Part shown: positions 32,644 to 32,718 of the stretch, in pieces
Layout: the number at the start of each line of letters is the position of its first letter
Numbering within the stretch: position 1 is the stretch's first letter
From: a virus
IMG/VR virus record: IMGVR_UViG_3300029258_005404
Strand: one strand, 5' to 3'
Length of the DNA stretch: 64,000 bases
Translations under genes and position numbers: made by a program
The notes under the pieces: generated by a model
What the model saw: the letters and a program-made list of their open reading frames with translations, nothing else
Databases searched by the model: none
Told to the model about the DNA's origin: nothing

Positions 32644-32718
32644 GCGCCTGTAGCTCAGTGTTAGAGCAGTGACCTCTAAAATCACTGGTCGGTGGTTAGA
32701 ATCCACCCAGGCGCTCCA
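32644..32718 (+). tRNA. Amber suppressor tRNA (anticodon CUA) with Gly-like acceptor stem
   Basis: GCGCCTG/CAGGCGC-T-CCA; D arm GCTC/GAGC; loop CT-CTA-AA (32674-80); T arm GGTGG-TTAGAAT-CCACC. Confidence 0.85.

What the first reader, a model, noticed from the sequence alone, without database searches (positions are those of the whole stretch)
32644..32718. Amber-suppressor tRNA with Gly-type acceptor in a phage that still uses TAG as stop
Seen: a complete cloverleaf with anticodon CUA and encoded CCA. It has G1-C72, C2-G71, G3-C70 and U73, a C31:A39 mismatch, and an apparent compensatory swap of G19-C56 to U19-A56 (D loop AGTGTTA, T loop TTAGAAT). The long structural genes contain no in-frame TAG, and several genes end in TAG (11273, 29357, 49387). 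Established: G1-C72/C2-G71/G3-C70/U73 are bacterial GlyRS determinants, whereas code-15 phages usually read TAG as Gln. Inference: partial or regulated UAG readthrough, possibly as Gly, or an early or relict stage of recoding.
Basis: partly seen in the sequence, partly recalled or inferred. Interest (0 to 1): 0.7.

Follow-up and report, generated by a model that had tools for sequence, protein, structure and literature searches.

The report
Stop-reading tRNA that unlocks a phage operon
A large marine phage that uses the normal genetic code carries a real UAG-reading tRNA, and this tRNA most likely serves to read through two UAG stops in a tiny leader gene, which would switch on a neighbouring tRNA-hydrolase operon; dozens of distant phages keep the same layout.

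Summary
Three assemblies from three studies carry it without a single difference. TAG is a normal stop in this phage. It ends 19 of 115 predicted genes in the 110 kb I could read. No gene shared with two relatives carries an in-frame TAG.

The tRNA is not an orphan. It closes a same-strand gene row that holds:
- a 22-codon leader (31011-31079) with two in-frame TAGs and a Pro-Pro-stop end
- a helix that pairs the leader's end with the next gene's ribosome-binding site
- a Pth2-fold hydrolase gene (31446-31754)
- a tRNA-like RNA

Of 80 phage loci encoding a relative of this hydrolase, 72 carry a tRNA(CUA) downstream on the same strand. Thirteen of the hydrolase genes hold one in-frame TAG. Twenty of the 80 (plus the window) have the TAG-gated leader; none has a TAA or TGA version.

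My best reading is that the tRNA is the key of a readthrough-gated operon. It is neither a code change nor a relic. Glycine charging is plausible but untested, and probably does not matter.

This scan has already noted the module on other DNA (238 notes, at least 159 genomes). My five full-text paper searches turned up no paper linking PTH2 and a suppressor tRNA. Nothing here is experimental.

The parts
32644..32718 (+). tRNA with anticodon CUA (amber reader). It has a Gly-like acceptor (G1-C72, C2-G71, G3-C70, U73), an encoded CCA, U19-A56 in place of G19-C56, and a C31/A39 mismatch. This is the proposed 'key'.
   Evidence: ARAGORN. Rfam tRNA 64.2 bits. Sequence read. Identical in three assemblies.
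30998..31079 (+). Leader. The SD AAGGAG lies at 30998-31003. The ORF runs 31011-31079 and reads M-L-P-I-TAG(31023-31025)-VTSIHPP-TAG(31047-31049)-IFYRKRKPP-TAA(31077-31079). This is the proposed 'lock'.
   Evidence: Read. The same leader, with both TAGs and the Pro-Pro-stop end, occurs in relative G002. The pattern is found in 21 of 81 regions (20 of 80 loci plus the window) with a TAG gate, and in none with a TAA or TGA gate or in the antisense and downstream controls.
31076..31152 (+). Helix that hides the ribosome-binding site. 31076-31084 overlaps the leader's TAA and pairs with 31144-31152, the SD and spacer of the next gene. It encloses a hairpin, 31085-31091 with 31098-31104.
   Evidence: RNAfold MFE. 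Duplex -12.4 kcal/mol. In 18 loci the matching pairing averages -14.7 kcal/mol against -7.3 shuffled and -8.0 cross-locus.
31154..31480 (+). First gated gene: 108 aa, TTG start, unknown function. It overlaps the next gene by 35 nt.
   Evidence: ORF list. 50% identical homologue at the same place in G002. No Pfam or PHROG hit.
31446..31754 (+). Pth2-fold peptidyl-tRNA-hydrolase-like gene (102 aa). It has no in-frame TAG here. Codon 62 is CAG where G002 has TAG.
   Evidence: Family profile against PDB Pth2 chains, E 2.4e-5. 23 of 32 family members hit PF01981. AlphaFold pLDDT 93. Foldseek TM 0.75-0.81 to Pth2 and Bit1 structures. G002 TAG. CAG.
31778..32321 (+). Two small ORFs of the same gene row, 31778-32092 (104 aa) and 32136-32321 (61 aa). 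Function unknown.
   Evidence: ORF list. No family hits. No + strand terminator-like site between 30900 and 33600.
32325..32404 (+). tRNA-like RNA with a much enlarged anticodon loop. G002 has an orthologous element in the same slot.
   Evidence: Rfam tRNA 31.0 bits with a 14-nt insertion in the anticodon loop. G002 counterpart 34.8 bits with a similar acceptor and T arm.
32405..32643 (+). G+C-rich, non-coding, structured spacer between the tRNA-like RNA and the tRNA(CUA).
   Evidence: Fold -82.8 kcal/mol, z -2.6. A weak twister-P1-like match at 32430-32499 (21.7 bits) is far below the family's gathering score of 67.2.

Best explanation
The tRNA(CUA) is a working amber suppressor. Its selected job is to gate its own gene row, not to recode the genome.

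The row is transcribed as one + strand unit: leader, unknown gene, Pth2-like hydrolase, two small ORFs, tRNA-like RNA, tRNA(CUA). Ribosomes that start on the leader normally stop at codon 5 (UAG) or codon 13 (UAG). While they do, the sequence over the leader's final UAA stays paired with the Shine-Dalgarno region of the next gene.

Once mature, charged tRNA(CUA) has built up, some ribosomes read both UAGs. They reach the Pro-Pro-UAA end, where termination is slow, and open that helix. The downstream genes, including the Pth2-like hydrolase, can then be translated.

Genuine TAG stops elsewhere are little affected. Suppression is probably weak, and readthrough tails are short (median 5 codons).

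What is shown:
- the tRNA
- the conserved leader with its TAGs
- the complementarity between leader end and SD
- the Pth2 fold
- the genetic linkage across phages
- standard-code usage

What is inferred:
- expression, charging and suppression
- stalling at Pro-Pro-stop
- the direction of control
For: (1) The tRNA is intact and scores high. It is identical in three assemblies.

(2) Linkage. Of the 80 best IMG/VR loci encoding a relative of the Pth2-like protein, 72 have a tRNA(CUA). All 72 lie on the same strand and all but two downstream, at a median distance of 60 nt and within 700 nt in 67. One more locus has a UCA tRNA directly downstream. The 72 tRNAs comprise 55 different sequences.

(3) An unselected check. 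Locus L044 was fetched for a different reason and holds two CUA tRNAs. It also encodes a Pth2-like protein 2 kb upstream on the same strand.

(4) Joint presence and absence within the clade. The window phage and G002 have the leader, the Pth2-like gene, the tRNA-like RNA and tRNA(CUA) in the same slot. G001 has none of them.

(5) The lock. The leader and both its TAGs are conserved between the window and G002. The strict leader pattern occurs in 21 of 81 regions with a TAG gate, and in none with TAA or TGA gates or in the antisense and downstream controls. The base after a leader TAG is a purine in 24 of 24 cases, against 52 of 85 gene-ending TAGs.

(6) The leader end pairs with the next gene's SD, specifically within each locus. 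The mean is -14.7 kcal/mol, against -7.3 shuffled and -8.0 cross-locus (Wilcoxon p 8e-6 and 3e-5). In the window the value is -12.4 kcal/mol.

(7) Thirteen of the 80 Pth2-like genes carry exactly one in-frame stop, always TAG, at varied and non-conserved columns. G002's aligns with Gln62 (CAG) of the window protein.

(8) The genome is not recoded.
Against: There are no RNA, aminoacylation or reporter data.

TAG ends 16% of this phage's genes, so any efficient suppressor would carry a cost. A later check recorded in the scan's notes makes the same point for a related case.

In this window the Pth2-like gene itself has no TAG, so the gating rests on the leader alone.

The strict leader pattern was found in only 20 of the 80 loci (a looser pattern in 56 of 81 regions). 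The 80 loci include near-duplicates.

The C31/A39 mismatch and the U19-A56 swap could weaken the tRNA.

I could not confirm, in the two loci carrying UCA or UUA tRNAs, that the gate codon changes along with the anticodon.

76 kb of the genome was not examined.
Confidence: 0.55

Rival explanations
1. General, untargeted suppressor. The tRNA causes low-level readthrough of UAG everywhere, in host and phage. In the Borges et al. model this is a pre-adaptation that lets in-frame TAGs accumulate later. The leader and the linkage to the Pth2-like gene would then be incidental.
For: Standard-code relatives of recoded phages are known to acquire suppressor tRNAs (bioRxiv 10.1101/2021.08.26.457843, read). 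The genome has low G+C (35.6%). G002 carries one in-gene TAG at a Gln position.
Against: TAG is not depleted: 16% of stops in the window genome, 16% in G002 and 19% in G001. The one in-gene TAG in G002 and all the leader TAGs lie inside the tRNA's own operon. Chance does not explain 72 of 80 same-strand linkages or the TAG-only leaders.
Confidence: 0.15
2. The tRNA is chiefly a substrate or partner of the Pth2-like enzyme. For example, the enzyme might strip the amino acid or peptide from tRNA(CUA) to limit suppression. Alternatively, the pair might relieve ribosome stalling and peptidyl-tRNA build-up together with the phage tmRNA. Gating would then be secondary, or a feedback loop.
For: The genetic linkage is very tight, 0-13 nt in many loci. 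The Pth2 fold is confirmed. A lysine aligned in solved Pth2 chains is replaced by Gln or Ser in this family (alignment), which hints at changed specificity. A tmRNA is conserved in all three relatives. In-gene TAGs would make enzyme level follow suppressor activity.
Against: No test of enzyme specificity is possible with these tools. This idea alone does not explain the conserved pairing between the leader end and the SD. It is compatible with the best explanation rather than exclusive of it.
Confidence: 0.17
3. The tRNA is a decaying copy of a phage tRNA-Gly with a scrambled anticodon arm, or an assembly artefact. On this view it has no function.
For: The nearest tRNA found (L003, Gly-UCC) shares the D arm, the T arm, G1-C2-G3, U73 and CCA, but has a completely different anticodon arm. 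The tRNA has a C31/A39 mismatch and a non-canonical 19-56 pair.
Against: The cloverleaf is complete at 64 bits. The acceptor-stem differences from L003 are compensated. The sequence is identical in three assemblies. A CUA anticodon is kept at the same slot in G002 on a different tRNA body, and in 72 of 80 related loci. An A/C mismatch at 31-39 recurs in 13 of the 56 distinct module tRNAs. U19 with A56 recurs in other tRNA types.
Confidence: 0.03

Closest known systems
Suppressor tRNAs of stop-codon-recoded phages (TAG read as Gln, 'code 15': crAss-like, Lak and others; Borges et al., bioRxiv 10.1101/2021.08.26.457843; Peters et al., PMC9523058)
   Same: Both are phage-encoded tRNA(CUA) genes in a low-G+C phage whose host presumably uses the standard code. 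Readthrough is thought to control when genes are expressed.
   Different: In this phage TAG remains an ordinary stop (19 of 115 genes). No conserved gene has an in-frame TAG in 110 kb. The only in-frame TAGs lie in a leader of the tRNA's own operon. The acceptor is Gly-like, not Gln-like.
Orphan CUA suppressor tRNAs in standard-code jumbo phages, e.g. Xanthomonas phage XacN1 (PMC5852040)
   Same: Amber-reading tRNAs in a phage that uses TAG as a stop. In silico readthrough of TAG-ending genes found no target in XacN1, and I found none here either.
   Different: A candidate target is identified here: the TAG-gated leader, and in relatives the Pth2-like gene. I did not examine XacN1 itself.
Leader-peptide translational attenuation (ermC/ErmCL type) and slow termination at Pro-Pro-stop
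   Same: A short upstream ORF controls whether the next gene's Shine-Dalgarno is paired, depending on where the ribosome sits. The leader ends in Pro-Pro-stop. From my own knowledge, this context slows termination.
   Different: The input would be readthrough of UAG by a tRNA encoded in the same operon, not a drug or an amino acid. I know of no published case of this. The comparison is by analogy and is not a membership claim.
prfB (RF2) autoregulation through an in-frame UGA
   Same: An in-frame stop codon inside a translation-factor gene makes its output depend on how that stop is decoded.
   Different: prfB uses a +1 frameshift and a release factor. Here the mechanism would be suppression by a tRNA. 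In this window the stop lies in the leader, not in the enzyme gene.
PTH2-family hydrolases of jumbo phages (Iyer et al. 2021, PMC7824862)
   Same: The window's 102-aa protein has the Pth2 fold. PTH2 genes are known in large phages and were proposed to help ribosome rescue.
   Different: That paper does not mention suppressor tRNAs (zero occurrences of 'suppressor'). It therefore does not describe the linkage or the in-frame TAGs. The family here is short and divergent, and the window's own protein misses the Pfam model when scanned alone.
Engineered amber suppressors of E. coli tRNA-Gly (McClain et al. 1991, as summarised in PMC9976931)
   Same: G1-C72, C2-G71, G3-C70 and U73 combined with a CUA anticodon. 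[quoted passage not shown]
   Different: This one is natural and phage-encoded. Its body carries U19-A56 and C31/A39. The host and its GlyRS type are unknown.

Membership tests
Canonical elongator tRNA | Cloverleaf with a 7-bp acceptor, D, anticodon and T arms and a 7-nt anticodon loop with U33 | tested here: met
   Rfam RF00005 at 64.2 bits over the full model. ARAGORN call. Loop CUCUAAA with U33.
Canonical elongator tRNA | G18-U55 and G19-C56 elbow contacts | tested here: inconclusive
   G18 and U55 are present. Positions 19-56 are U-A rather than G-C. The same swap appears in several other A56 tRNAs (Arg, Cys, Met, Pro, Gly, Ile) but not in all of them. I could not test whether the fold is preserved.
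Bacterial tRNA-Gly (GlyRS substrate) | Acceptor determinants G1-C72, C2-G71, G3-C70 and discriminator U73 (PMC9976931) | tested here: met
   All four are read from the sequence. G10-C25 and G45 are also present.
Bacterial tRNA-Gly (GlyRS substrate) | Anticodon determinants C35 and C36 (PMC9976931) | tested here: not met
   The anticodon is C34-U35-A36. It therefore cannot be filed as a tRNA-Gly. It may still be charged through the acceptor end.
Bacterial tRNA-Gly (GlyRS substrate) | Glycylation in the host | not testable with these tools
   The host is unknown and no biochemistry is available.
Code-15 phage suppressor tRNA (TAG read as Gln) | Many in-frame TAGs in conserved, mostly late, genes of the same genome | tested here: not met
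   No in-frame TAG in genes shared with G001 or G002 across 110 kb. Code 11 gives the best gene structure.
Code-15 phage suppressor tRNA (TAG read as Gln) | Gln-type identity elements (G73, weak 1-72 pair, G2-C71, U38); recalled from my own knowledge of E. coli GlnRS | tested here: not met
   The window tRNA has U73, G1-C72, C2-G71 and A38. G002's tRNA(CUA) does have G73, G2-C71 and a Gln-like D stem.
Pth2-like / tRNA(CUA) gated operon (noted earlier by this scan; no paper found) | tRNA(CUA) on the same strand as, and close to, a Pth2-fold gene | tested here: met
   The gene lies at 31446-31754 and the tRNA at 32644-32718, both on the + strand. The same arrangement holds in 72 of 80 related loci. 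The fold is confirmed.
Pth2-like / tRNA(CUA) gated operon (noted earlier by this scan; no paper found) | Upstream leader ORF with an early in-frame TAG and a Pro-Pro-stop end | tested here: met
   Leader at 31011-31079 with two TAGs. The pattern is found in 21 of 81 regions, with zero in all controls.
Pth2-like / tRNA(CUA) gated operon (noted earlier by this scan; no paper found) | In-frame TAG inside the Pth2-like gene | tested here: not met
   The window gene is open, with CAG at codon 62. The TAG is present in G002 and in 12 other loci of the 80. It is therefore a frequent feature, not a defining one.
PTH2 family (PF01981) | Sequence and fold match to Pth2 | tested here: met
   Profile against PDB Pth2 chains, E 2.4e-5. 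23 of 32 family members hit PF01981. TM 0.75-0.81 to 2zv3, 1q7s, 1xty and 3erj. The window protein alone is below Pfam's threshold.
PTH2 family (PF01981) | Peptidyl-tRNA hydrolase activity and catalytic residues | not tested
   In the one alignment shown, a Lys of the solved chain aligns with Gln or Ser of this family. I did not map catalytic residues further.

The most novel reading that the evidence does not exclude
The operon is a self-contained sensor of how UAG is being decoded in the infected cell, that is, of suppressor tRNA charging against release-factor-1 activity. The tRNA is a deliberately weak key. Its amino-acid identity does not matter, which would explain why module tRNAs carry all four discriminator bases and often an A/C mismatch at 31-39. 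The leader's two purine-followed UAGs and its Pro-Pro-stop convert readthrough into unmasking of a ribosome-binding site. The Pth2-like enzyme it switches on then acts on tRNA ends, possibly on the key itself. This would be a natural regulatory use of nonsense suppression inside a standard-code genome.
Probability: 0.35. Interest if true: 0.85.

Novelty: new variant of a known kind. Interest (0 to 1): 0.68.

Why it matters
Amber-reading tRNAs in phages that keep the standard code have been reported without any identified target, for example in XacN1. If the reading here holds, such a tRNA has a specific job: it unlocks a small translation-related operon through stop codons placed in a leader peptide.

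That would be a new kind of leader-peptide control, in which the signal is readthrough by a tRNA encoded in the same operon. It would also give a function to PTH2-like genes of large phages. And it would offer a plausible first foothold for the full stop-codon recoding seen in other phage lineages.

The circuit is small, about 1.7 kb. It could be tested directly with reporters in a laboratory host.

Tried and rejected
- **Conserved C-terminal extensions after TAG-ending genes.** The apparent cases turned out to be something else. One was a separate small membrane-protein gene in the same frame (11705-11959 and its neighbour). Another was conserved DNA holding stops of all three kinds in the relatives (downstream of 21799-22641). 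The rest were ordinary stops aligned with TAA in homologues.
- **A six-frame scan for in-frame TAGs spanned by alignments.** Off-frame matches of conserved DNA swamped it, so I dropped it.
- **Exact anticodon-arm search in IMG/VR.** It gave two hits, neither a tRNA.
- **T-arm 17-mer search of metagenomes.** It returned 68 loci. None holds this tRNA or any CUA tRNA.
- **Nucleotide search of cultured phages.** No match.
- **Protein search of cultured phages.** The Pth2-like protein found only distant homologues (about 30-40% identity) in Stenotrophomonas and Lak phages and in uncultured giant phages. Two Stenotrophomonas phages have no tRNA near the gene, and Lak-A2 has only a UUA tRNA upstream.
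- **Do gate codon and anticodon change together?** I found no matching leader in the UCA locus (L221) or the UUA locus (L251).
- **RNA evidence.** No RNA holder was listed among the sequencing runs.
- **McClain et al. 1991.** The paper is not held.
- **First look-up by exact protein.** It failed because my predicted start codon differed from the recorded one.
- **Reading the rest of the genome.** I stopped after 110 of 186 kb, because the tools state a limit on how much of a metagenome record a session should hold.
- **Twister ribozyme at 32430-32499.** At 21.7 bits against a gathering score of 67.2, I did not accept it.

Full report
**1.

ARAGORN finds four RNA genes in the window:
- a tmRNA at 12386-12793
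- tRNA-Glu at 13206-13279
- a tRNA with anticodon CTA at 32644-32718
- tRNA-Met at 62969-63045

Rfam scores the CTA tRNA at 64.2 bits over the whole model, the best of the three tRNAs.
- acceptor pairs G1-C72, C2-G71 and G3-C70, then C4-G69, C5-G68, U6-A67 and G7-C66
- discriminator U73 and an encoded CCA
- D loop AGTGTTA and T loop TTAGAAT, so position 19 is U and position 56 is A
- anticodon loop CUCUAAA closed by a C31/A39 mismatch

The anticodon is not an assembly error. Contigs of 132.7, 50.3 and 50.3 kb, from three runs of three studies (two sediment, one seawater), cover 30000-36000 with no difference at 26-35x word depth. Some of these runs may be the source of the window.

**2. What genome this is**

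The window has 35.6% G+C. It has no close relative among cultured phages at the DNA level. Its 670-aa protein at 46302-48314 belongs to a family spread across many large myoviruses.

Two IMG/VR contigs are colinear relatives. G001 is 208 kb and rated complete. G002 is 149 kb. Between 48 and 55 of my 93 predicted window genes match them, at 25-89% identity and in the same order.

The window itself lies on JGI contig Ga0180431_10000027, which is 186,407 nt long. Using gene look-ups I could read 110 kb of it.

**3. TAG is an ordinary stop here**

I used a simple codon-usage gene caller.

| Sequence | TAA | TGA | TAG |
|---|---|---|---|
| Window | 64 | 16 | 13 |
| 110-kb composite | 80 | 16 | 19 |
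| G002 | 114 | 26 | 26 |
| G001 | 138 | 28 | 40 |

Reading TAG as sense does not improve gene structure in any of them. Extensions after TAG stops are short, with a median of 5 codons, much like those after TAA and TGA.

Every apparent conserved extension had another explanation. Homologous genes end at the same residue, with TAG in one phage and TAA in another.

I then aligned G001 and G002 proteins to the 110 kb. No in-frame TAG appeared in the homologues of 69 and 83 query proteins respectively. The long genes left of the window (1004, 881, 2597 aa and others) are called whole under code 11.

**4. The tRNA's body**

Exact-word searches of IMG/VR found only three contigs with the same 17-nt T arm. 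One of them, L003, is a tRNA-Gly(UCC) from a 67-kb phage. It shares the window tRNA's D arm (including the AGTGTTA loop), T arm, G1-C2-G3, U73 and CCA. It differs by compensated changes at acceptor pairs 4-6 and has an entirely different anticodon arm.

This supports a Gly-type origin for the scaffold. However, C35 and C36, which the tRNA identity review lists among glycine determinants, are absent.

U19 with A56 is not unique to this tRNA. It also appears in tRNAs for Arg, Cys, Met, Pro, Ile and Gly that share this T arm. Some A56 tRNAs nevertheless keep G19.

**5. The turn: a second CUA tRNA in the same slot**

G002 has a tRNA(CUA) between the homologues of window genes 31446-31754 and 33927-34757. 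That is exactly the window tRNA's slot. Its sequence cannot be aligned with the window's. It has C1-G72, G73, a Gln-like D stem and no CCA. G001 has no such tRNA. The anticodon is kept while the tRNA body is not.

**6. The neighbour gene**

Aligning window proteins to G002 revealed a single in-frame TAG in a conserved gene. It lies in the homologue of 31446-31754. The window protein has Gln62 (CAG) at that position, and both proteins continue, well conserved, to the same end.

This 102-aa protein has the Pth2 fold:
- Its family profile matches solved Pth2 chains at E 2.4e-5.
- 23 of 32 family members hit PF01981.
- A model with pLDDT 93 superposes on Pth2 and Bit1 structures at TM 0.75-0.81.

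**7. The linkage is general**

A scan of IMG/VR with the family alignment found 336 relatives, and the best 80 loci were kept.
- Seventy-two loci have a tRNA(CUA). All 72 lie on the same strand and all but two downstream, at a median of 60 nt, with 35 within 100 nt.
- One further locus has a UCA tRNA directly downstream.
- One of the eight loci lacking a CUA tRNA ends right after the gene.
- The 72 tRNAs comprise 55 distinct sequences.
- Among the 56 distinct module tRNAs (including the window's), the discriminator is A in 28, U in 13, G in 11 and C in 4. The loop is CUCUAAA in 41. An A/C mismatch at 31-39 occurs in 13, including the window's.
- Thirteen of the 80 hydrolase genes carry exactly one in-frame stop. 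It is always TAG, at varied positions that are not conserved columns.
- L044 was fetched for an unrelated reason and holds two CUA tRNAs. It also encodes a Pth2-like protein upstream on the same strand.

By comparison, I saw no CUA tRNA among the 110 tRNAs of 68 unrelated metagenome loci.

**8. The lock in this window**

A first-stage note on this window pointed me to a Pro-Pro leader. I read it.

The SD AAGGAG is followed by an ATG at 31011. The frame then runs:
- four sense codons and a TAG (31023-31025)
- seven sense codons ending Pro-Pro and a second TAG (31047-31049)
- nine sense codons ending Pro-Pro and a TAA (31077-31079)

G002 has the same leader, with both TAGs in the same places.

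I defined a strict pattern: SD plus ATG, TAG at codon 2-9, then a short stretch ending Pro-Pro plus a stop. It occurs in 21 of 81 regions upstream of the hydrolase gene, always 355-512 nt before it. It occurs in none when TAA or TGA is required as the gate. It also occurs in none on the antisense strand or downstream. A looser pattern gives 56 regions for TAG, 17 for TAA and 9 for TGA.

The base after a leader TAG is a purine in 24 of 24 cases, against 52 of 85 gene-ending TAGs. From my own knowledge of E. coli suppression, a 3' purine favours suppression.

**9. How the lock could work**

In the minimum-free-energy fold, 31076-31084 overlaps the leader's TAA and pairs with 31144-31152. The latter is the SD and spacer of the next gene, whose TTG start is at 31154. 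The duplex energy is -12.4 kcal/mol.

The same relation holds across 18 loci. The mean is -14.7 kcal/mol, against -7.3 for shuffled partners and -8.0 for partners taken from other loci (Wilcoxon p 8e-6 and 3e-5). The complementarity therefore follows each locus's own sequence.

A ribosome that reaches the leader's end would open this helix. It can only get there if both TAGs are read through. No + strand terminator-like site separates the leader from the tRNA, so a single transcript can carry both lock and key.

**10. Verdict and limits**

The tRNA is real. The genome is not recoded. The tRNA is best read as the key of a readthrough-gated operon whose main recognisable product is a Pth2-like hydrolase.

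Glycine charging is plausible, but the variety of discriminator bases among module tRNAs argues that the inserted residue is not what is selected.

All of this is inference from sequence. Nothing shows that the tRNA is made, charged or active. TAG ends one gene in six, so suppression must be weak or brief. A later check recorded in the scan's notes gives a related bold reading 20 in 100 for the same reason.

I independently reached the G002 in-gene TAG and the 72-of-80 linkage before reading those notes. The leader came from a note, and I then tested it myself.

This scan has already noted the module on other DNA (238 notes in at least 159 genomes). Two of those notes, on a 149-kb phage, are probably about G002.

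The papers I searched establish two things separately. PTH2 genes occur in jumbo phages (PMC7824862). Orphan CUA tRNAs occur in a standard-code jumbo phage (PMC5852040). I found no paper that connects the two.

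Noticed in passing
window 12386-12795 (+): Phage tmRNA (Rfam 161 bits). ARAGORN predicts a 29-residue tag that ends in AVL rather than the usual LAA. tmRNA genes are also present at the syntenic place in G001 and G002.
   Followed up: partly
window 32325-32404 (+); L073:1915-1985 (-): tRNA-like RNA with a normal acceptor and T arm but a 14-nt insertion in the anticodon loop (Rfam 31 bits). An orthologous element lies in G002 (34.8 bits). G002 also has further fragments resembling a T arm plus acceptor end between it and the CUA tRNA.
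   Followed up: partly
window 32430-32499 (+): Weak match to the type-P1 twister ribozyme model (21.7 bits, gathering score 67.2) inside the G+C-rich spacer before the tRNA. Several core motifs are present, but the score is far too low to accept.
   Followed up: no
window 33927-34757 (+): RlaP-family nucleotidyltransferase (Pfam PF10127, E 7.5e-67) 1.2 kb after the tRNA. It is conserved at the same place in G001 and G002, including G001, which lacks the tRNA and the hydrolase.
   Followed up: no
window 21450-21800 (-): The stretch after gene 21799-22641 is conserved in G001 and G002, although the gene's frame downstream of its stop holds stops of all three kinds in those relatives. It includes a 48-aa ORF (21476-21622) that is 83-90% identical across the three phages.
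   Followed up: partly
L124 and L152, around the T-arm match (185-kb contig Ga0272440_1000011): A tRNA-like gene with the same D arm (AGTGTTA loop) and T arm as the window tRNA, A73 and CCA, but an over-long anticodon arm. ARAGORN does not call it.
   Followed up: no
L044:4130-4420 and 6417-6588: A 103-kb IMG/VR phage contig with two adjacent CUA tRNAs and a Pth2-like gene 2 kb upstream on the same strand. I found it by accident through a D-arm word search.
   Followed up: partly
window, between positions 11243 and 53313: The window is 2 nt longer than JGI contig Ga0180431_10000027 somewhere in this span. The coordinate offsets of the left and right look-ups differ by 2. I did not locate the indel.
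   Followed up: no
window 9996-11273 (+): A 425-aa protein with a Fib_succ_major domain (PF09603, E 1.5e-20) and a weak carboxypeptidase-regulatory-like N-terminus. It ends in TAG.
   Followed up: no
L169:10575-18368 (left of the window in the same genome): A 2597-aa beta-helix (NosD/Beta_helix) protein followed by a PKD-domain protein. This is probably the tail-fibre region. The genes are called whole under code 11.
   Followed up: no
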